In this document: positions 1 to 8,764 of the stretch, one piece after another | How the letters are laid out: every line of letters starts with the position of its first letter | How positions within the stretch are numbered: position 1 is the first letter of the stretch | NCBI GenBank assembly: GCA_045650745.1 | Contig: JAZRRN010000048.1 | Location: 5,896 to 69,895, forward strand | Source of the DNA: Candidatus Caccovivens sp. | GTDB lineage: Bacteria > Bacillota > Clostridia > Christensenellales > UBA1242 | Length of the DNA: 64,000 bases | Direction of reading: 5' to 3' | Translations under genes and position numbers: made by a program | The notes under the pieces: model-generated | The model's database searches: none | What the model saw: the letters and a program-made list of their open reading frames with translations, nothing else | What the model was told of the DNA's origin: nothing

Positions 1-671
1 AAAGTAAATGGTTTTGCTGGAGAATATTCCTTGTCCATTTTTTCAAGCAAAGCATTTTCTGTTTCTTCTTTTACGACGACATTTTGCGAAAATTTGTTTT
101 CTATCTCCAACTCTTCCAACAATGTTATGATTCTGACAAAGGATTCTCCCAATTTGACAGATTCCCCTTCCACATCACCATTTAAGAAATGTCCTCTACT
201 TTTGATAATATTATGCAAAGCAAGGTATAAAAATCTGATATCCTCTGCAGGTTTTTCAAGCAAATCTTTTCTCAAATGGAAAATGGTAGGGTATTTCTTA
301 TAATACTCTTTATCTGTAAATTTTTCGCCATTTACCCCAGTTTGGAACAAACTATCTTTTCCGTTGTTCAAGCAAATGTTTTTGTCTTCCTGATGCAAGG
401 AACTTTCTTTCAATCTTATAAAAAAGTTTTCATCAACTTTTGCAATTTCTTTGGCAAAAATTTCTTGAAGCCATTGGACCATAAGTTTCTTTCTTTGCCA
501 TCTTCTTCTTGCACCTCTCTTAACCCTTCTATCCTGGGCTACGCTTGCTTCGGGAAACAATGAAACTCCCCACAAATCCTGTCCTTTTGCCCTTTGCAAT
601 TCATAACTTTCATTGGTCACCGCCCAACCAACACTAGAAGTTCCAATATCCAATCCTAAAAAATACTTCAT
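1..671 (-). CDS. cas9: Cas9 (type II CRISPR endonuclease), N-terminal 223 codons; the gene continues beyond the left edge of the window
   Basis: Not in the supplied ORF track because there is no stop in the window. The reverse complement of 671..1 is one open frame starting at ATG (669-671): MKYFLGLDIGTSSVGWAVTNESYELQRAKGQDLWGVSLFPEASVAQDRRVKRGARRRWQRKKLMVQWLQEIFAKEIAKVDENFFIRLKES...KKYPTIFHLRKDLLEKPAEDIRFLYLALHNIIKSRGHFLNGDVEG... This contains the RuvC-I motif (DIGTxSVGWA), the Arg-rich bridge helix, and YPTI(F/Y)HLRK / LYLAL..IIK.RGHF motifs colinear with SpCas9-type (II-A-like) proteins. An SD GGAGGA is at 689-684. Confidence 0.9.
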   Translation of the reverse strand, partial: MKYFLGLDIGTSSVGWAVTNESYELQRAKGQDLWGVSLFPEASVAQDRRVKRGARRRWQRKKLMVQWLQEIFAKEIAKVDENFFIRLKESSLHQEDKNICLNNGKDSLFQTGVNGEKFTDKEYYKKYPTIFHLRKDLLEKPAEDIRFLYLALHNIIKSRGHFLNGDVEGESVKLGESFVRIITLLEELEIENKFSQNVVVKEETENALLEKMDKEYSPAKPFT

Positions 672-676
672 TTTAT

Positions 677-705
677 TTGACATCCTCCATTTATTGTGAT
701 ATACT
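677..705 (+). promoter_or_regulatory. Near-consensus sigma-A promoter driving the putative tracrRNA
   Basis: TTGACA (677-682), 17-nt spacer, TATACT (700-705), with TG at 697-698 (extended -10). It overlaps the cas9 SD and 5' UTR on the opposite strand. Predicted TSS is about 712. Confidence 0.55.
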
Positions 706-1001: not shown

Positions 1002-1922
1002 ATGTTGGCAAACACAAAACAAGTTTTTGAAAAAGCAATCAACGGCAGCTATGCTGTTGGAGCGTTCAATTTTGTAAATATGGAAATCTTGCAAGCAATC
1101 TTGGAAGCAGCCCAAGAAGAAAAAAGCCCTGTCATTATCCAATGCAGCACTGGCGCAATCAAGTATGCTGGCGAAGATTATCTCAAAGGCATGGTGCTTT
1201 CTGCAACAAAAAATATTTCCGTGCCTGTCGTTTGGAATTTGGATCACGGAAAAACCTTTGAAGATTGTGCAAAAGCGATTGAATTGGGATTTACAAATGT
1301 TATGATTGATGCATCTTCGCTCCCATACGAAGAAAATGTTGCCCTCACAAAAAAAGTGGTTGATTTTGCTCACAGCAAAGGTGTGACAGTCGAAGCAGAA
1401 CTTGGCGTGCTTGCCGGTGTTGAAGATGATACACACAACGACAGTCAATGTTACACAAATCCAGACCAAGCAATTGATTTTATAAACAAAACAAACTGCG
1501 ACAGTCTTGCAATTGCAATCGGCACAAGCCACGGTTTGCACAAATTTGCTGGCGAAGCAAAACTTAGATTAGACATTTTGCAAGATTTATCAAAAAGATT
1601 GCCAAACTATCCATTTGTGCTTCATGGCGCAAGTTCGATTCCAGAGCAATATGTAACCCTTGCAAACGAAAACGGTGCAGCCATAAAAAATGCAAAAGGT
1701 GTGCCAGAAGAAATGTTGAAAGAGGCCTGCCGCCTCAACATTTGCAAAGTCAATGTCGACAGCGATTTGCGAATTGGTTTTGCTGCCGGCATAAGAGAAT
1801 GCTTAAATCAAAACCCAAGTGATGTTGACATGAGACATTATCTCACCAACGGCAAAAAATATGTCAAACAACTTGTCAAAGCCAAAATGCAATCAGTGTT
1901 TGGCAGCAGCAACAAAGCATAA
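1002..1922 (+). CDS. fba: Class II fructose-1,6-bisphosphate aldolase
   Basis: 306-aa ORF: MLANTKQVFEKAINGSYAVGAFNFVNMEILQAILEAAQEEKSPVIIQCSTG...NLDHGKTFE...AIAIGTSHG..LHGASS. These are the typical FbaA/class II aldolase motifs. A hairpin terminator follows. Confidence 0.95.
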   Translation: MLANTKQVFEKAINGSYAVGAFNFVNMEILQAILEAAQEEKSPVIIQCSTGAIKYAGEDYLKGMVLSATKNISVPVVWNLDHGKTFEDCAKAIELGFTNVMIDASSLPYEENVALTKKVVDFAHSKGVTVEAELGVLAGVEDDTHNDSQCYTNPDQAIDFINKTNCDSLAIAIGTSHGLHKFAGEAKLRLDILQDLSKRLPNYPFVLHGASSIPEQYVTLANENGAAIKNAKGVPEEMLKEACRLNICKVNVDSDLRIGFAAGIRECLNQNPSDVDMRHYLTNGKKYVKQLVKAKMQSVFGSSNKA

Positions 1923-1951
1923 AAAAAGAGTGTTTTTACACTCTTTTTTTT
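1921..1951. terminator. Bidirectional hairpin terminator between convergent fba and the collagen-like gene
   Basis: A7-GAGTG (1928-1932)-TTTTTA-CACTC (1939-1943)-T8. Confidence 0.75.
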
Positions 1952-1964
1952 AATTGTTTTGTTT

Positions 1965-4900
1965 TTAGCCAACAATTGTCAAACATTGTCCAAGCAATGC
2001 CGCTTGCTCTTCAGTGAAATCAGGGTTTCCTGATTGGGTGTTTTTGAAGGCAATCATCACATATCTAGTGTTTGCTTGAAGTGTGTGAGGAGTTGACAAC
2101 CAAGCTCCTGCACATGCCGCCTTTTGTTCTGCTGTCGCAGTCTCTTGTCTAGCATTAGGGAAACTCAAGGTTTGCTTAGACAGCACAGCACTTGAAAATT
2201 CCATCACTGCAAATTCCAAATTTGTAGAACCAAAAACTTCTTCCAAATTTTCAACAAATGCAAGTGTTTCGCCACCATTTACTGCAAGCACAGCAGTGAT
2301 GCAAGTTGCACGACCTGTCACTGTTGCCGCTGCAGGAGTAAATGCTGCACCCGCATAGCCTGGAGGTGCATATTCAGTGTTGAAAGTCATGTCTGAAATG
2401 TTTTCGACAATTTCCAATTCCTCTCCATAATAAGTTGCAACAGTTGGTGCTTCAGGTTCGACTGGCACTTCTGGTTCTTCAGGGATTTCTGGTTCTGCAA
2501 ATGTTACACAACTATTCAACAAAGCCAAATCTTCTGCAGAAAAATTTGCACTGCTGTCTGTTTCGTTTCTAAACAAAATCATAATGTATTGTGTTGCAGA
2601 ATTCAAAACATAATCCCCATCAACCCAACTTCCAGCAGTTGCACTGTTTGTGAAAGTTGAGGAGTCCATAGGAATACCTGCAAATTCATAAATAGTATAT
2701 TTCAATTGCACAGATGTTTTTCCTTGAACAAGTGTCAATTTTCTATTTGTTGCGTCAACCTTCAAAACTTGTGATTGTGAAGCAGCTCTGCCTGCTGTGT
2801 CTGTATAGGTCAACTGATTTCCACCAATTGACTTGCCAGCTGTGTATTCAACTTCTGCAAAATCTTCAACAATTGTCAATGTTTTGCCATTGAATGTTGT
2901 TGTTGGGATTGATGGATCAACTGGTGTTTCACCTTGTTCAGGATCTCCACCCTCACCTGGCTCTTCAGGTGTTGTGGTTGTTTCTGTCAATGCCAAGCAT
3001 TGTGCGAGCACTGCAACTTGATCTTCTGTAAAGTCAACAGAGCTATCACCATTTTTGAATGCAATAATCACATATTTTGTGTTTGCTTGCAATCTGTGTG
3101 CTGTTGTCAACCAAGCCTTGCCAACTGCAGCAGCCGAAACACTCTCTGTTGTGCTCAATGTCGCCATTGAAAGCGGAGCAGCAGAAAATTCGAGCACCGC
3201 AAATGACAAATTGGTTGAGCCAAACACTTCAGCCAAATTGTCAACAAATGCAAGTGTTTCGCCACCATTTACTGCAAGCACTTTTGTCATGCCTACAGCA
3301 CGACCTTTTGTTGCAGGAAAATCGCCACTTGCTGTGCCGGCAACACTATATCCGGCAGTGAAGTCAATGTCAGCAATCTCATCAACAACAGTCATATCTT
3401 TTTCTACTCTGCTAGATTGACCAGTGCCAGGCTCAACCACAAATTTTACTGTTGTTTCATCTTCGCCAGGTGTTGGATCTGTTGGTGTTTCGCCGCCTTC
3501 ACCTGGTTGTTCGCCAGAAGCATCACCAAAGTTTCCAACTTTGTTCCAGTTTCCAGATGTTTTCAAATAAATATCAAAATTTGCTGTGTTGAGATAAAAA
3601 TCTCCATCTTCGCCCAATGTTGACAAAGGTGCCCCTTCGCCAGAATGCCATTCTGCCCCTGAAACTGTTGTTTCTGGATAAATATCACTCTTTGTTGGAG
3701 CAAGTTTTCTGTTTTGAGCAAAGTCAAAATCTATGTCATATTCTGATGCAAATCTGCAAGCATCTTCAAACCAAGTTTTTCCTGCACCGAGTTCCGAACC
3801 TGTATAGAATTGCCATTCGTGTCCAAACAAAATGTAAGAAGAAATCGAATTTGCATAACTTGCACTTGTGTATCTTGCAACAAGTTCGTCATAAACATTG
3901 TCTTCTGTTGGCTTGTTGTATGTGTTTGCTGAAGAAAAATCTGACTTAAACCAATCTGTGCGAAGGTCAGTTGTCAAAAACACTAAGCCATTTTCGTAAT
4001 CAGTCACATGGTCGTTTGAATACATATATTGCATCAATTCTGTGTCAAAATAATATGAAAGTCTGCTGTCGTCTGCTGACAAGAAGCCGAGAGCCCCACA
4101 ATTTGCATCTCTCATACCTCTCAAAGCTTCCAAACTTCCTGCAAATGTGTGAAGTCTTGGGATTCTGTCAATGTTGAGATATGATCCTGTGATTCTTACC
4201 ACATTGTCAACAAAACTGTTCCAAGCATTTTTTCCTTGGTCATATGTAGAACTTCCAAATTGTGCACTGCTGCTTGTCGCATGCAAACCAATCTTAAGCC
4301 AATCTTTTGCGGCAAGAAACTCTGCTGCAAATTTGTTTGATACTCCTGAAATTGCATCGTTGTAAACATACAAACTAAATTTTGCACCATATTGTTCGTT
4401 CAATCCTTTGAGCCAAGCAAAGAATGGTTCGTCATACAAGCTTGTGTATGTTGCGGCTTTGTTTTTCAAGTTTTGAAAACAGTAAGTCACATCATCAAAA
4501 GAAATATGCATAAATTCTGCTTGGCTTGCTATGGGAGAGTCAGTGCCGTCAGCACCATCGTTTCCGTCTTTGCCATCAGCACCTTTGATGTTTCCAATCT
4601 TTGTCCAACTGCCAGATGTCTTTTGATAAATATCATAATTTACGGTGTTGAGATAGAAGTCTCCATCTGCTCCCAAGGTGTCACTTGGCACAACTGCACC
4701 ACTGTGCCATACTGAGCCATCTTTTCCAGCAGGGCCTTCTGGACCTTGTGGACCAGTTTCTCCAGTTTCACCCTTTTCGCCTTCTGGACCTTGTTCACCC
4801 TCTGGGCCTTGTGGACCTTCAGGACCTTGTGGGCCAGTTTCGCCTTCACCATCTTCGCCATGAAGGTTTGAAATCACAGCCCAGCCACTTTCTCCTCTAA

Positions 4901-5162
4901 ACCAAACATTGCCTGTGTCGGTTTCAAAATAATAGTCGCCCAAAACACCAATTGCACTTGTTGGATCAGCCTCTCCATTATACCAAGTTGAACCATTTGT
5001 TCCAGGAGCACCTGGAGCACCAGGATCGCCCTTTTCGCCAGCTCCACAACCTGCGAGCATGCCTACAGAACCTGCAAACATCGCCACACCAAGTGCTGCA
5101 CCGACAAGACCTTTTCTAAACACATTGAAAGGCACTTTCTTTTTGTTTTTGTCTTTTGCCAT
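1965..5162 (-). CDS. Collagen-like repeat surface lipoprotein with a central globular domain of unknown function and three C-terminal repeats of about 130 aa
   Basis: The ORF track starts at 5219, but that ATG lies at or within the predicted TSS region just downstream of the -10 box. The paralog-supported start is ATG 5162 ([18 protein letters not shown]...), preceded by AGGAG. The signal peptide ends in the lipobox LAGC. G-X-Y runs include [16 protein letters not shown] and [48 protein letters not shown]. The module W(Y/H)xG...GD(Y/F)Y(F/L)xT...W occurs three times. The central domain has the motif HISFDDV...LHATSS; it may be deacetylase/glycosidase-like, but this is unverified. The C-terminal repeats (..[12 protein letters not shown](D/E)N..) are separated by Pro/Glu-rich linkers. 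Confidence 0.85.
4716..4859 (-). repeat. Collagen-like G-X-Y triplet tract, 48 residues, coding
   Basis: In-frame [48 protein letters not shown]. The DNA shows a 9-nt periodic ggaccttgtgg-type repetition. Confidence 0.9.
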
Positions 5163-5223
5163 TTTTGTCTCCTTTTTCCTTCTTGATTTAGTATGCCAAA
5201 CAAAATCAATAATACTCATTTTG

Positions 5224-5253
5224 AGTATACCCCCCCCCGAAGCAAAAAGTCAA
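5224..5253 (-). promoter_or_regulatory. Promoter of the 1965..5162 gene, with a G9 tract in the spacer
   Basis: Minus strand: TTGACT (5253-5248), 18-nt spacer TTTTGCTTC+GGGGGGGGG, TATACT (5229-5224). It is nearly identical to the promoter at 7685-7714. Confidence 0.65.
5230..5238. repeat. Homopolymer C9 (plus strand) = G9 (minus strand) within the -35/-10 spacer
   Basis: Read directly: gagtata-ccccccccc-gaagc. Confidence 0.9.
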
Positions 5254-5256
5254 ACA

Positions 5257-5287
5257 ATTTGCAAACAAAAAAAAGAGTGAAAAGTTC
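5257..5287 (-). terminator. Terminator of the 5312..7621 gene
   Basis: GAGTGAA (5265-5271), 3-nt loop, TTCACTC (5275-5281), flanked by A and T runs. On the minus strand it is followed by T8. Confidence 0.75.
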
Positions 5288-5311
5288 ACTCTTTTTTGTT
5301 TTGATTGATTT

Positions 5312-7621
5312 TTACGCTTTGTAAATTGTCACATAACTTGCCAAATCAGCAGAATCTGTTGACTCAAAATCAAATGCTGCTTCGCTAACCTTTTTAAGTG
5401 CAAAACCATACCAACCAGATTCAGCAATCACAAAAGTTGTTGCATCCCAACCACCAGAAATAGAACTTCCTGTTGTGATTTCTGTTTCGCCAGTTTGTTT
5501 GTAAACAGCATAAGCATAATCAGCATTTGCTTTCACAATTGTTGTGCCTGCAGTCAAATATACATTTTTGACTGTTGAAGCTCTCTTGACATCCTCTTCA
5601 TAACCAGCTCCATATTTAGAGCCAGCTTCAAATGTCACTTCAAAAGTTTGGATTTCATTTACTTCGATAGAAATGTAATCAAGCAAATCATTGCTCATTG
5701 TCGAGAAGTTGAAATTGCTGTCATCTTTTGTAGCCAACACAAAACCATACCAACCTGGTGCTGTGATTAAATATTCCCCTTCATTATAACCACCTGTGAG
5801 GCTTGTAAGACCTTCAGTTACAGTGATTGTTTCTCCTGTTTGTGCATAAACTGCAAATTTAACAGCAGAATTCTTCACTGAAACAGTTGCAATACCATTG
5901 ATATAAATGTTTTTTGTTACAGTTGCTCTTCTTGTGTCTAAAAGCACATTGTCGGTTGTGCCAAATTTATTTCCGGTCACCAAGGCACTTTCTGCGACTT
6001 CGCCATCATCTTCACCTTCACCTGGTGTAGGATCTGTTGGTTCTTCCCCTTCTTCACCTTCGCCACCATCACCTGGTTCTTCTGGTGTTGAAGTTGGTGG
6101 AGTAATTGTCACATAATCATAAAACTCTTTGCTCATTGTCAAGAAGTTGAAATCACTGCCATCGTCCATAGACAACACAAAACCATACCAACCATCTTCT
6201 TGAATTTCAAATGTGTCTACAAAACCACCAGAAATGCTTGAAGATGCAGCAATCGCTTCGCCTGTTTGTGCATAAACTGCCAAGCCGTGCATAGCTGCAT
6301 TTTTTACAGAAACCACATCACCCTTTTTAAGTTGAGTGTTTTTGACTGTCGTTGCTCTTTTAAGGGTTGTCGCTGTCGTAGGGTCTGTTGAAAAAGCATT
6401 TCCTGCTTTGATTTCATATTCATATTGTGGAGCAACAACTTCTTCGTTGCCACTTCTAGCAAACAAATTGAGATGATATTTCATAATGTTTGCCATAAGT
6501 TTGTGTCCTTCTGCATTTGGATGCAAACCATCTGGCATATACATATTTTTGATTGATTCAACAATTGGGTTCAAACCACTGATTGAAAACATATCAATCA
6601 CAGGGATTGAATATCTTTCGCAAACTTCTTTCATTGCATCAACATAATCTTTCAATGTTTTGCCTGTTACTGGGTGTGCTTCATAGTCGTAATTCAAATC
6701 ATTTTTGTTTGTGTCTGCATTATATCTGTGAAGTGGAGTAACCACAACAATTCTGCTTGAAGGATATTTTTGTTGCAATGCTGGCAAAATCACATTCAAA
6801 GCACCATAGAAAGAAACATCTGTTGTGTCATCAATTGATCCAAGTGGAGTGCCATGTCCATAGTCGTTTGTGCCCATAAAAATTTGGATCAAATCTGCTT
6901 CTGGGATTGTTTGATATCTGTTGATAAGAGGACTGTTTCCGGTGCCATAATCACTTTTTACACTCCAGCAAGAGCCACCAACTCCCATGCCAACAACATT
7001 TGCAAAGCCAAGTTCTTCTGCCAAAATTTCCCAGTATTTTTGACCATCACAGCCACTTCCCTTTGTGATGCTGTCACCAACAAACACTGCAGTTTTTCCT
7101 ACCCAAGGGCTTTGATCAACAATTGTTACATCTCTGTCACCAGAAATTTCGCCCATTTTTGTCCAAACGCCATTTGTTTTTGTGTAAACAAAGTTTGTTG
7201 AGATGTCCAAATATGTGTCACCATTTTTTCCAACTGCTGCTGTAGGTTCTGTTGTGCCAGTAAGCCAAGACGCGCCATCTTTGCCATCTTCACCTGGGTC
7301 TCCTTCTGGACCTGTAATATTTGAAATGGCAGTCCAGCCTGATGCAAGTTTTACATAAATGCTTCCATCGTCAGTGTCAAAAAAGAAATCTCCTGCAACA
7401 CCTTGTGCTGGGTCGTATTGAGAGCCAGAATACCAAGTTGAGCCATTTGTTCCTGCTGGTCCTTGTTCTCCTTGTGGACCTTGTTGACCTTGTGGACCTG
7501 CTTGTCCACAACCTGCGAGACCAACGCCACCTGCAAGGATTGTTGCACCAAGCAATGCTCCTACAAAACCTTTCTTAAACACATTGAAAGGCACTTTCTT
7601 TTTGTTTTTGTCTTTTGCCAT
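5312..7621 (-). CDS. Collagen-like repeat surface lipoprotein fused to an SGNH/GDSL hydrolase (esterase) domain, with three C-terminal repeats of about 115 aa
   Basis: [22 protein letters not shown] lipobox. GXY tracts include GPQGQQGPQGEQGPAGTNG and GPEGDPGEDGKDG. SGNH blocks: VFVGDSITKGSG (I), GVGGS (II), FMGTNDYG (III), DGLHPNAEGH (V). Three repeats (..VKN..L..G..V.VKN...AVYAQTGE...GWYGFVL..) are separated by PE/G-rich linkers. Confidence 0.9.
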   Translation of the reverse strand: MAKDKNKKKVPFNVFKKGFVGALLGATILAGGVGLAGCGQAGPQGQQGPQGEQGPAGTNGSTWYSGSQYDPAQGVAGDFFFDTDDGSIYVKLASGWTAISNITGPEGDPGEDGKDGASWLTGTTEPTAAVGKNGDTYLDISTNFVYTKTNGVWTKMGEISGDRDVTIVDQSPWVGKTAVFVGDSITKGSGCDGQKYWEILAEELGFANVVGMGVGGSCWSVKSDYGTGNSPLINRYQTIPEADLIQIFMGTNDYGHGTPLGSIDDTTDVSFYGALNVILPALQQKYPSSRIVVVTPLHRYNADTNKNDLNYDYEAHPVTGKTLKDYVDAMKEVCERYSIPVIDMFSISGLNPIVESIKNMYMPDGLHPNAEGHKLMANIMKYHLNLFARSGNEEVVAPQYEYEIKAGNAFSTDPTTATTLKRATTVKNTQLKKGDVVSVKNAAMHGLAVYAQTGEAIAASSSISGGFVDTFEIQEDGWYGFVLSMDDGSDFNFLTMSKEFYDYVTITPPTSTPEEPGDGGEGEEGEEPTDPTPGEGEDDGEVAESALVTGNKFGTTDNVLLDTRRATVTKNIYINGIATVSVKNSAVKFAVYAQTGETITVTEGLTSLTGGYNEGEYLITAPGWYGFVLATKDDSNFNFSTMSNDLLDYISIEVNEIQTFEVTFEAGSKYGAGYEEDVKRASTVKNVYLTAGTTIVKANADYAYAVYKQTGETEITTGSSISGGWDATTFVIAESGWYGFALKKVSEAAFDFESTDSADLASYVTIYKA
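6467..7096 (-). other. SGNH/GDSL hydrolase domain within 5312..7621
   Basis: Residues about 176-385 carry the four conserved SGNH blocks (GDS-, G, GxND, DxxH). Confidence 0.8.
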
Positions 7622-7684
7622 TTTGTTCTCCTTTTTTTTTGTTTAATCTAGTATAACCTCGAAATTCAATTAATACTCACTTTG

Positions 7685-7714
7685 AGTATACCCCCCCCCG
7701 AAAGAAAAAGTCAA
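7685..7714 (-). promoter_or_regulatory. Promoter of the 5312..7621 gene, with a G9 tract in the spacer
   Basis: Minus strand: TTGACT (7714-7709), 18-nt spacer TTTTCTTTC+GGGGGGGGG, TATACT (7690-7685). Confidence 0.65.
7691..7699. repeat. Homopolymer C9 (plus strand) = G9 (minus strand) within the -35/-10 spacer
   Basis: Read directly: gagtata-ccccccccc-gaaag. Confidence 0.9.
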
Positions 7715-7742
7715 ACAAATTTGATGTGTTTGTTGACTTAAA

Positions 7743-7773
7743 CAAAAAAAACGAGAGCTAATATTTCTCCCGT
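7743..7773 (-). terminator. Terminator of the 7796..8764 gene
   Basis: Minus strand: ACGGGAG-AAATATTAG-CTCTCGT followed by T8. Confidence 0.65.
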
Positions 7774-7795: not shown

Positions 7796-8764
7796 TTATG
7801 CATTTCCAATTCTGTCTCTGCTTGAAGTTGTGCCTGTTGTTGAAAGTGGTCTAATCGAATAAATTTGATTTCCTGTTGCGTGAATTTGTTTTTCGATGTC
7901 ACGATCATATTTAACACTTGCAACAAGACCTTGTGGACCATAAATGTCAAGTGTTTTCGCTCTGATAAAATTTTCGATCAAATCACAAGTTTTTCTTGCT
8001 TTGCCATATTCTCTTACCAACTTGTCTTCAAGTTTCCATGAGCAATATTCTGTGCCAGTTCTTGCTTCGGCAAGTTTATATTCCATATAAAACTTTGCTG
8101 GGCTGTGTGTAAGTTCGGCAAATGTCCAAATGTCAACTGGATTTTTTGTTTTTTCGTATCTTTCATAATATCCAACCATCGCTTGCTTGATTGCATTTGC
8201 ATAAGCACCACTGTTTACAAAGTTCATATACCAACAATATTGTCTTCTTGCATTTACGACATATTCTTTGAAATCTTCTTTTGAAAATCTTTCTGCCGTA
8301 AATGGATCCCAATATCTGCCATGATCTCTTTGATCAAGAAGTTCGTTGTATCTAACCCACAACCAGTCGAGTTGTTTGTTGAGTTTTTTCACCGAGTTGA
8401 TGTCATCATTGATAGCAACATTCATATAATCGTTGATGTGCAAAGAAGCAATCACAAGCCATTCTTCTGGAGTTTTTTTGCCTGATTTTGCTTCGATTTC
8501 TTTTGCTTTTGCAACAAGTTCTGGAAGCAATCTTTCCTTTTCTTCCATTTCCAAATACATTGCCAAACTTCTCAAATCGCCTCTTTGTGCAAGATAAATC
8601 AAATCTTCTCTAATCAAGTGCATTTTATATTCTTCACCCACATATCTCTTCTTTGCAAGACTTGCTAAATATGCCTTAACCTTTACAAAATTGTCAAAAT
8701 TTTCATCTCTTGCAAACTCTTGCAAATCCATATCGGCACAAACAAACTTTCCATCTACAAACAT
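7796..8764 (-). CDS. Hypothetical cytoplasmic protein, 322 aa, predominantly helical, no recognisable motif
   Basis: Long ORF with SD AAGGGGA 6 nt upstream of the ATG, its own promoter and its own terminator. No signal peptide. Confidence 0.7.
   Translation of the reverse strand: MFVDGKFVCADMDLQEFARDENFDNFVKVKAYLASLAKKRYVGEEYKMHLIREDLIYLAQRGDLRSLAMYLEMEEKERLLPELVAKAKEIEAKSGKKTPEEWLVIASLHINDYMNVAINDDINSVKKLNKQLDWLWVRYNELLDQRDHGRYWDPFTAERFSKEDFKEYVVNARRQYCWYMNFVNSGAYANAIKQAMVGYYERYEKTKNPVDIWTFAELTHSPAKFYMEYKLAEARTGTEYCSWKLEDKLVREYGKARKTCDLIENFIRAKTLDIYGPQGLVASVKYDRDIEKQIHATGNQIYSIRPLSTTGTTSSRDRIGNA

What the first reader, a model, noticed from the sequence alone, without database searches (positions are those of the whole stretch)
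1965..7722. Mosaic lipoprotein family with a conserved expression and signal-peptide cassette
A 49-bp block is identical between the two genes (5117-5165 and 7576-7624). It covers the start codon and codons for [15 protein letters not shown]. The promoter and 5' UTR upstream are nearly identical (about 5215-5262 versus 7675-7722). Downstream the proteins share modules in the same order: lipobox, G-X-Y collagen tracts, the module W(Y/H)xG..GD(Y/F)(Y/F)..T, and PE-rich linkers containing PTDPTPGE. They carry different central domains and different C-terminal triple repeats. A conserved 5' cassette plus variable mature region resembles variable lipoprotein families of wall-less bacteria. It would permit recombinational shuffling.
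Basis: partly seen in the sequence, partly recalled or inferred. Interest (0 to 1): 0.6.

Follow-up and report, generated by a model that had tools for sequence, protein, structure and literature searches.

The report
Switchable, shuffled surface-enzyme lipoprotein gene family
A tiny-genome gut bacterium carries nine surface-anchored enzyme genes that share one "start cassette" with a slippage-prone run of G's in the promoter, so each gene can probably be dimmed or switched at random and the genes are swapped between strains, a pathogen-style trick in a little-known commensal lineage.

Summary
The two genes on the minus strand (A 1965-5162, B 5312-7621) share an exact 49-bp block, near-identical promoters and leaders, lipobox signal peptides and the stated modules.

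The family is larger than reported. The 1.21-Mb genome has nine members and no promoterless silent copies.

Each cassette promoter has a G8-G11 run between its -35 and -10 boxes. All 13 G/C runs of 7 or more in the genome sit in such spacers, ahead of surface-protein genes.

- Tract variation: six assemblies of a sister strain are identical over 2,700 nt except G9 versus G10 at the orthologue of promoter B.
- Locus variation: the slot between a conserved 322-aa gene and fba holds B+A, B alone, A alone or no family member in different samples.
- Mosaicism: one paralogue is a chimera, and leader types are exchanged between genes.

The proteins are collagen-stalked, phage-tail-fibre-like hydrolases: SGNH esterases, a deacetylase-like fold, a phosphoesterase and a GDPD domain.

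The organism is walled (PBPs, MraY), not wall-less. It resembles Mycoplasma Vlp and Treponema Tpr functionally.

Switching of expression is inferred.

The scan has noted poly-G lipoprotein promoters before, on other DNA and elsewhere in this genome.

The parts
7685..7714 (-). Promoter of gene B. The -35 box TTGACT is at 7709-7714, a 9-nt spacer segment at 7700-7708, the poly-G (G9) at 7691-7699 and the -10 box TATACT at 7685-7690. The total spacer is 18 bp.
   Evidence: The promoter scan scores it 10 of 12 with an 18-nt spacer.
5224..5253 (-). Promoter of gene A. The -35 box TTGACT is at 5248-5253, a 9-nt spacer segment at 5239-5247, the poly-G (G9) at 5230-5238 and the -10 box TATACT at 5224-5229.
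7673..7690 (-). Palindrome TATACTCA-AAG-TGAGTAT overlapping the -10 box of B. It is a candidate operator shared by the family.
   Evidence: Read. It is conserved in most cassettes. Its function is inferred.
5212..5229 (-). The same palindrome (TATACTCA-AAA-TGAGTAT) overlapping the -10 box of A.
7622..7684 (-). 5' leader of B (beta type) with the ribosome-binding site AAAGGAG.
   Evidence: There is no Rfam hit and no significant fold.
5163..5223 (-). 5' leader of A (alpha type). It is 97% identical to the leaders of paralogues C55_10596 and C56_4888.
5312..7621 (-). Gene B, a 769-aa lipoprotein.
7508..7621 (-). B signal peptide with lipobox LAGC (Cys38).
   Evidence: Lgt and LspA are present in the genome.
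7127..7507 (-). B stalk: two short collagen G-X-Y tracts and two W..G..GD.Y..T modules. It resembles phage tail fibres.
   Evidence: PHROG tail-fibre families 15437, 3904, 5073 and 819.
6497..7084 (-). B SGNH/GDSL hydrolase head.
   Evidence: Pfam PF13472, 6.7e-22. Phage tail-fibre family phrog_5240, 1.1e-46.
5315..6439 (-). B C-terminal region: three roughly 115-aa all-beta jelly-roll repeats, with the PE linker PTDPTPGE at 6017-6040.
   Evidence: AF2 pLDDT 87. The best PDB matches are CBM-bearing glycosidases, with low TM scores.
5269..5297 (-). Intrinsic terminator of B, so A is a separate transcription unit.
1965..5162 (-). Gene A, a 1065-aa lipoprotein.
5046..5162 (-). A signal peptide with lipobox LAGC (Cys39).
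4521..5045 (-). A stalk: collagen tracts (15 triplets at residues 107-151) and two tail-fibre-like modules.
   Evidence: Pfam Collagen, 2.2e-07. PHROG tail-fibre families.
3669..4514 (-). A head: an alpha/beta barrel with a polysaccharide-deacetylase-like (CE4/NodB-type) fold.
   Evidence: AF2 pLDDT 89, pTM 0.85. PDB 3rxz, E 9e-7. An uncharacterised siphovirus protein matches at E 3e-21, TM 0.70 and 32% identity.
1968..3440 (-). A C-terminal region: three roughly 150-aa repeats separated by PE-rich linkers, with PTDPTPGE just upstream at 3462-3485.
   Evidence: (families D3, D12). No Pfam hit.
1921..1950 (-). Bidirectional terminator shared by A and the convergent fba gene.

Best explanation
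The two genes belong to a nine-member family of lipid-anchored surface proteins. The host is a walled, reduced-genome gut Clostridia bacterium that earlier notes place in family UBA1242.

Each gene is its own transcription unit. Each begins with a shared cassette made of:
- an upstream terminator,
- a TTGAC(A/T) -35 box,
- 9 conserved bases,
- an uninterrupted run of 8-11 G,
- a TATACT -10 box inside a palindrome,
- a roughly 60-nt leader with a strong ribosome-binding site,
- a lysine-rich lipoprotein signal peptide ([15 protein letters not shown]...LAGC).

Behind the cassette comes a short collagen stalk like that of a phage tail fibre. Then comes a hydrolase head that differs between members: SGNH esterase, deacetylase-like barrel, metallophosphoesterase or glycerophosphodiesterase. 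Most members end in repeated beta-sandwich domains.

Shown: the G run changes length by slippage, because otherwise identical strains differ only there.

Inferred: each length change alters the -35/-10 spacing (9 + n bp, with 17 bp at G8). This raises, lowers or silences transcription of that one gene, so a population carries many combinations of surface enzymes (phase variation).

Shown by comparison between genomes: the shared cassette also acts as a homology patch. Through it, genes are duplicated, deleted, fused and given each other's leaders, so strains differ in which members they carry.
For: Family and cassette:
- There are nine genes with the cassette or a diverged form of it.
- All have lipoboxes.
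- Lgt and LspA are present.

Poly-G placement:
- The genome has only 13 G/C runs of 7 or more. There are 12 runs of 8 or more, against 2.7 expected.
- All 13 lie between -35-like and -10-like boxes ahead of lipoprotein or membrane-protein genes. Nine are in this cassette.
- The feature persists in other genera of the family whose cassettes have a different sequence.

Poly-G variation:
- Six assemblies of the RGIG3948-type sister strain are identical over 2,700 nt except G9 (three assemblies) versus G10 (three) in the orthologue of promoter B.
- All three orthologous promoter pairs between this genome and RGIG3948 differ in run length: 9/10, 8/9 and 11/7.
- One more sample has G11.
- Two contigs break at or inside the run.

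Recombination:
- The slot holds different haplotypes in different samples.
- Paralogue C55_10596 is a chimera.
- The B orthologue in L028 carries an alpha-type leader, 93% identical to the leader of A against 78% to that of B.
- RecA is present.

Precedent: poly-G between -35 and -10 controls tp0126 in Treponema pallidum and porA in Neisseria meningitidis, with a 17-bp optimum. The tpr gene family behaves likewise (PMC7864442).
Against: - No expression data exist and no transcription start site is mapped.
- G9 versus G10 calls come from short-read assemblies. Several of those may derive from one study, and consensus homopolymer lengths can be wrong.
- Most promoters sit at G9 (18-bp spacer), not at the canonical 17 bp, so the on/off assignment is uncertain.
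- Three contigs of a more distant relative all show G10.
- MutS and MutL are present, so slippage is not enhanced by loss of mismatch repair.
- Identity between paralogue bodies is only 30-70%, so most domain shuffling is old.
- The 100% identity of the cassettes at the ends of contigs C55, C56 and C50 may partly be an assembly effect.
Confidence: 0.7

Rival explanations
1. This is a static paralogue family. The cassette is conserved only because all members need the same promoter, regulator sites and export signal. The G run is a fixed promoter or operator element, and the length differences are neutral drift or assembly error. Control is by a shared transcription factor, not by stochastic switching.
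For: - Palindromes overlap the -10 box and lie upstream of the -35 box in most cassettes, which suggests a common regulator.
- Three samples of a distant relative share G10.
- A C7 tract is unchanged between the two species.
- No expression data exist.
Against: - The G run is the only variable site in 2,700 nt across six assemblies.
- All three orthologous pairs differ in run length.
- Every long G/C run in a 37% G+C genome lies in a surface-gene promoter spacer. That pattern is hard to explain without selection for the run itself.
Confidence: 0.17
2. This is antigenic variation by gene conversion from silent, promoterless donor copies into one or a few expression sites, as with MgPa in Mycoplasma genitalium or tprK in Treponema pallidum.
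For: The family has a conserved 5' end with variable bodies, and mosaic paralogues exist.
Against: - tblastn of all nine proteins against the whole assembly finds no family sequence outside the nine promoter-bearing genes.
- Every member has its own promoter and terminator.
Confidence: 0.03
3. The genes are phage or mobile-element cargo, such as prophage tail fibres or depolymerases, rather than cellular surface proteins. Their patchy distribution reflects prophage gain and loss.
For: - The stalks and both heads match phage tail-fibre families or phage proteins.
- Presence is patchy: 7 of 101 family genomes have a match.
- One slot haplotype carries a serine recombinase.
Against: - All members have lipoprotein signal peptides.
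- They sit between housekeeping genes (rpoC, fba, mraY region), and none of the gene tables read for these loci lists another phage gene.
- Each has a sigma-70-type promoter cassette shared genome-wide.
- The loci are syntenic across species.
Confidence: 0.05

Closest known systems
Mycoplasma hyorhinis Vlp variable lipoprotein family (Rosengarten and Wise 1990/1991, cited in PMC11868660). The poly-A promoter detail comes from my own knowledge of Yogev 1991 and Citti and Wise 1995.
   Same: - It is a multigene family of surface lipoproteins.
- Each gene has its own promoter.
- The 5' region is highly conserved (promoter, leader, lipoprotein signal peptide) and the mature regions diverge.
- A homopolymer sits between the -35 and -10 boxes.
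- Expression is combinatorial, and gene number differs between strains.
   Different: - The run is poly-G, not poly-A.
- The host is walled, with peptidoglycan genes, and is not a Mollicute.
- The mature parts are folded enzyme and binding domains on collagen stalks, not short tandem-repeat antigenic coats.
- No sequence homology to Vlp was found.
- Switching has not been observed here.
Treponema pallidum tpr family and tp0126 poly-G promoters (PMC7864442)
   Same: - The host has a reduced genome and is host-dependent.
- A paralogous surface-protein family carries G7-G12 runs in its promoters.
- In tp0126 the run lies between the -35 and -10 boxes, with a 17-bp optimum.
- G9 is the commonest length in natural populations, with G8-G11 minorities.
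   Different: - Tpr proteins are outer-membrane beta-barrels of a pathogen.
- Here the proteins are lipoproteins of a Gram-positive-type gut commensal or parasite of other microbes.
- Tpr promoters do not form one near-identical cassette that includes the signal peptide.
Neisseria meningitidis porA (poly-G spacer) and opc (poly-C) promoters
   Same: Slippage of a G/C run in or at the promoter core gives graded or on/off transcription of a surface protein.
   Different: These are single genes, not a cassette-sharing family. They are Gram-negative outer-membrane proteins.
Phage tail fibres and tail spikes with collagen-like segments and SGNH or deacetylase heads (PHROG 5240, 819, 3904, 5073; BFVD A0A8S5UN50)
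   Same: The order of parts matches: a collagen-like trimerising stalk, W..G..GD.Y..T modules and a carbohydrate-esterase head. Sequence or fold matches give E values of 1e-46 and 3e-21.
   Different: - These are chromosomal genes.
- They have lipoprotein signal peptides.
- They have cellular promoters.
- No virion genes lie nearby.

Membership tests
Homopolymer promoter-spacer phase-variable (contingency) loci | An uninterrupted mononucleotide run of about 7 or more lies between the -35 and -10 hexamers. | tested here: met
   G9 lies in an 18-bp spacer at both window promoters. The other members carry G8-G11.
Homopolymer promoter-spacer phase-variable (contingency) loci | Run length varies among otherwise identical cells or strains. 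| tested here: met
   This was met for the orthologous promoter in a sister strain. G9 versus G10 is the only difference in 2,700 nt across six assemblies.
Homopolymer promoter-spacer phase-variable (contingency) loci | Run length changes transcription, reversibly and at high frequency. | not testable with these tools
   This needs reporter assays, 5' RACE, metatranscriptomes or read-level data.
Mycoplasma variable lipoprotein families (Vlp, Vsa, Vsp) | The host is a wall-less Mollicute. | tested here: not met
   Two transpeptidase PBPs and MraY are present. Related records are labelled Clostridia bacterium.
Mycoplasma variable lipoprotein families (Vlp, Vsa, Vsp) | A conserved promoter, leader and lipoprotein signal peptide is joined to divergent mature regions in several genes. 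| tested here: met
Mycoplasma variable lipoprotein families (Vlp, Vsa, Vsp) | The mature region is built of short in-frame tandem repeats that give size variation. | tested here: not met
   The mature regions are folded domains (SGNH, deacetylase-like, Metallophos, GDPD, Big_2/3) plus 2-5 repeats of 110-150 aa.
Bacterial lipoproteins (Lgt/LspA pathway) | There is an N-terminal signal peptide ending in a lipobox [LVI][ASTVI][GAS]C, and the host has the processing enzymes. | tested here: met
   Lipoboxes LAGC, LAAC, LTAC and LTGC occur in all nine members. Lgt scores 6e-67 and LspA 6e-39.
SGNH/GDSL hydrolases (gene B and four paralogues) | A Pfam PF13472 match above the cut-off, with the GDS(I/L) block present. 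| tested here: met
   B scores 79 bits against a cut-off of 32.9. FVGDSIT and DGLHPN are read in the sequence. Three paralogues have Pfam hits. The fourth, C3_102733, was not scanned against Pfam; its GDSI block was read by eye.
CE4/NodB polysaccharide deacetylases (gene A head) | A sequence match to the family model, and the fold with a metal-binding Asp-His-His set. | tested here: inconclusive
   No Pfam hit. The fold matches 3rxz at E 9e-7 with TM about 0.5. Invariant H, S, D, H, D, H and E are present, but the catalytic geometry was not checked.
Streptococcal Scl / Legionella Lcl collagen-like adhesins | An NCBIfam equivalog score above the cut-off. | tested here: not met
   The scores are 52 bits against a cut-off of 325 and 40 against 500. 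Only the collagen tract matches.

The most novel reading that the evidence does not exclude
The family is a domesticated set of phage receptor-binding and receptor-destroying proteins. A partner-dependent, tiny-genome bacterium displays them on lipid anchors to recognise and strip the envelope glycans or teichoic acids of the microbes, or the host mucus, that it lives on. The poly-G switches and cassette swapping then diversify its partner range, much as phages diversify host range. The G run may also act as a preferred breakpoint or docking site for cassette exchange, because two independent rearrangement junctions lie exactly at it.
Probability: 0.12. Interest if true: 0.85.

Novelty: new variant of a known kind. 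Interest (0 to 1): 0.55.

Why it matters
Slippage-driven contingency gene families are textbook material for pathogens such as Mycoplasma, Treponema, Neisseria and Haemophilus. I found no report of them for uncultured, reduced-genome gut Clostridia. The one paper on the biology of this lineage proposes dependence on partner cells but names no surface machinery (PMC12306168).

Here the variable repertoire consists of enzymes on stalks rather than an antigenic coat. This points to stochastic diversification of what the cell can bind or degrade.

The locus also offers a simple marker for strain-level dynamics in metagenomes: G-run length and slot haplotype. In addition, it shows phage tail-fibre parts reused as cellular lipoproteins.

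Tried and rejected
- Own-strain look-up: the exact look-up of this genome's 322-aa neighbour found no other record.
- Relatives: the exact promoter pattern was not found in 100 other genomes of the family, or in 30 relatives of the sister genome. Two same-genus genomes lack the family.
- Silent copies: none were found.
- Domain models: Pfam gave nothing for the stalk module, the A head or the C-terminal repeats.
- Leader function: a riboswitch or leader structure was rejected. There is no Rfam hit, and the fold z-score is about 0.
- Loss of mismatch repair: rejected as the driver, because MutS and MutL are present.
- Wall-less host: rejected.
- Illumina poly-G artefact: rejected. The runs are internal, are flanked by conserved promoter boxes and recur in independent assemblies.
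- C-terminal repeats: the fold search gave only low-TM matches to carbohydrate-binding modules, so their role stays open.
Full report
**1. The observation**

Two long genes lie on the minus strand. A runs from 1965 to 5162 and encodes 1065 aa. B runs from 5312 to 7621 and encodes 769 aa.

The blocks 5117-5165 and 7576-7624 are identical over exactly 49 bp. The promoter blocks are 92% identical. A 34-nt promoter core occurs twice, against none expected by chance.

Lipoboxes, G-X-Y tracts, the W..G..GD.Y..T modules and PTDPTPGE are all present. Each gene has its own terminator.

**2.

Both promoters read TTGACT, then 9 nt, then nine G, then TATACT. This gives an 18-bp spacer, half of it a G run. 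The -10 box is also the left arm of a palindrome, TATACTCA-N3-TGAGTAT.

**3. Size of the family**

The window lies on contig C48 of a 1.21-Mb, 62-contig genome. Searching that genome gives nine members.

| Member | Length (aa) | G/C run |
|---|---|---|
| A | 1065 | G9 |
| B | 769 | G9 |
| C8_124 | 621 | G10 |
| C50_46772 | 1257 | G8 |
| C50_3069 | 524 | G10 |
| C55_10596 | 964 | G9 |
| C55_7521 | 1267 | G11 |
| C56_4888 | 1046 | G9 |
| C3_102733 (diverged) | 486 | C7 |

Three contigs end inside the cassette. Synteny with a sister genome suggests that C50, C56 and C55 are one cluster.

All nine members have lipoboxes, and Lgt and LspA are present. No family sequence exists outside these nine genes.

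**4. The G runs are not chance**

The genome has 37% G+C. It holds only 13 G/C runs of 7 or more, and 12 runs of 8 or more against 2.7 expected. By my reading, every one lies between a -35-like and a -10-like box ahead of a lipoprotein or small membrane-protein gene.

Other genera of the family keep the design with different cassette sequences. Examples are TTGACAAAAAGT-G11-TAAACT, and TTGACAAA..-G9/G10-TAGTAT ahead of [13 protein letters not shown] lipoproteins.

**5. The runs vary in length**

A sister genome is labelled "Clostridia bacterium RGIG3948, roe deer cecum". It has about 91% nucleotide identity in the flanks and carries three orthologous promoters. All three differ from ours in run length:
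- B slot: G9 here against G10 there.
- C50_46772 slot: G8 against G9.
- C55_7521 slot: G11 against G7.

The strongest evidence comes from six assemblies that encode an identical upstream protein. They are identical over 2,700 aligned bases except for one column, the G run. It is G9 in three assemblies and G10 in three. Another sample shows G11.

Caveats apply. These are short-read consensus sequences. Several assemblies may come from one study.

**6. Mosaicism and recombination**

Within the genome, similarity at the N-terminus does not follow similarity of the body.
- A, C8_124 and C55_10596 share one stalk type (66-70% identity).
- B and C56_4888 share another (89% over 161 aa).
- C50_46772 and C55_7521 share a third (71%).
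- Each stalk type is joined to unrelated heads.

C55_10596 is 96-98% identical to A in the cassette and 80-88% in the first stalk. It then switches to B-like sequence at 70-83% identity.

Leader types move between genes. The B orthologue in ENA contig L028 has the alpha leader. It is 93% identical to the leader of A, against 78% to our B leader.

The slot between the conserved 322-aa gene and fba shows five states.

| State | Samples |
|---|---|
| B then A | this genome |
| B only | RGIG3948 type, L027 (L028 carries B, but the contig ends at B's stop, so what follows is unseen) |
| A only | L073; the upstream flank is orthologous to that of B |
| Serine recombinase plus CRISPR array | L109, L110 |
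| Convergent beta-helix lipoprotein, no cassette | L113, L114, L117 |

In the B-only state, an orphan TTGACTTTTTATTTC remnant follows B and stops exactly where the G run would begin. In the recombinase state, the promoter remnant ends after five G.

RGIG3948 has three members where this genome has nine. RecA is present.

**7. What the proteins are**

- Four members (B, C8_124, C55_10596, C56_4888) have Pfam SGNH/GDSL esterase heads. The diverged C3_102733 looks like a fifth, from a GDSI block read by eye and weak similarity to C8_124.
- C50_46772 has a metallophosphoesterase plus Big_2 domains.
- C50_3069 has a glycerophosphodiester phosphodiesterase domain.
- C55_7521 has Big_3 domains.

The head of A had no sequence-family hit. 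Its model is confident (pLDDT 89). It resembles polysaccharide deacetylases (3rxz, E 9e-7). It matches an uncharacterised siphovirus protein closely (E 3e-21, TM 0.70, 32% identity).

The stalks and the SGNH head match phage tail-fibre families, with phrog_5240 at 1e-46. The C-terminal repeats of B model as beta jelly rolls. Their best but weak matches are carbohydrate-binding modules.

I therefore read the proteins as trimeric, lipid-anchored stalks that carry carbohydrate- or phosphoester-cleaving heads. The substrates are unknown.

**8. The host**

Earlier notes place the genome in family UBA1242. I did not test that assignment. The sister record is labelled Clostridia.

A paper describes UBA1242 as reduced-genome, metabolically dependent gut bacteria that probably live off partner cells (PMC12306168).

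The genome encodes two PBPs and MraY, so the cell is walled.

**9. Mechanism and comparison**

The spacer length is 9 + n bp. G8 gives 17 bp, the usual optimum. G9 to G11 give 18 to 20 bp.

In Treponema pallidum, poly-G runs in tpr-family promoters, and between the -35 and -10 boxes of tp0126, vary in vivo and set promoter strength. N. meningitidis porA works the same way (PMC7864442).

The M. hyorhinis Vlp system is the closest match in layout (PMC11868660; the poly-A detail is from my own knowledge).

This family meets the structural tests for a homopolymer contingency locus and the variability test in a sister strain. The expression test could not be run. It fails membership of the Mycoplasma families themselves.

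**10. Verdict**

The finding is a new variant of a known kind.

The scan has already noted poly-G lipoprotein promoters on other DNA, and in this genome.

Noticed in passing
L109:8044-9401 and L110 (ENA contigs): In one slot haplotype the cassette promoter is cut after five G. It abuts foreign DNA that carries a 418-aa large serine recombinase followed by a CRISPR array, and fba and the lipoprotein genes are missing. Together with the orphan -35 remnant after B in other strains, this gives two independent junctions exactly at the G run.
   Followed up: partly
L020:7040-7075 and L027:2395-2425: An orphan promoter half, TTGACTTTTTATTTC, follows gene B in B-only genomes. It ends where the poly-G of the A promoter begins in this window (5239-5253).
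   Followed up: partly
whole genome G000: The longest A or T run in the genome is 9. There are 32 runs of exactly 9 and none longer, although about 16 runs of 10 or more would be expected from base composition. The cut-off is unexplained and could reflect selection or an assembly effect.
   Followed up: no
G000 C21:29352-29361, C21:34478-34485, C49:174762-174770: Three further G/C runs (G10, C8, C9) lie in promoter spacers ahead of two unrelated lipoproteins and an 89-aa membrane protein. A second design recurs on C21 and C3: TTGAC(A/T)-N3-Cn-GTGC-TAnAAT.
   Followed up: partly
L019, L022, L023, L025 (genome-contig hits): MAGs labelled Peptostreptococcaceae, Lachnospiraceae or simply Clostridia also have TTGAC(A/T)-N9-G8..G10-TATA promoters. 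One precedes a lipoprotein. The design may be widespread in gut Clostridia.
   Followed up: no
L026:5694-7100 (RGIG3948): A cassette-type promoter with G8 drives a 446-aa membrane protein, by my reading glycosyltransferase-like (not scanned). This protein is absent from the corresponding place on contig C9 of this genome.
   Followed up: no
window 3-683 (minus strand), and contig C48 upstream of the window: The N-terminus of a Cas9 gene lies at the left edge of the window. CRISPR repeats lie at the starts of contigs C48 and C9. Sister strains have an acetyltransferase and an ABC-F gene there instead.
   Followed up: no
window 7796-8764 (minus strand): A conserved 322-aa protein with no Pfam hit anchors the variable slot. 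It is duplicated in tandem in contig L113.
   Followed up: no
window 7720-7745 and other cassettes: An imperfect inverted repeat, GTCAACAAA...TTTGTTTGAC, spans the -35 box in several cassettes. It is a possible second operator.
   Followed up: no
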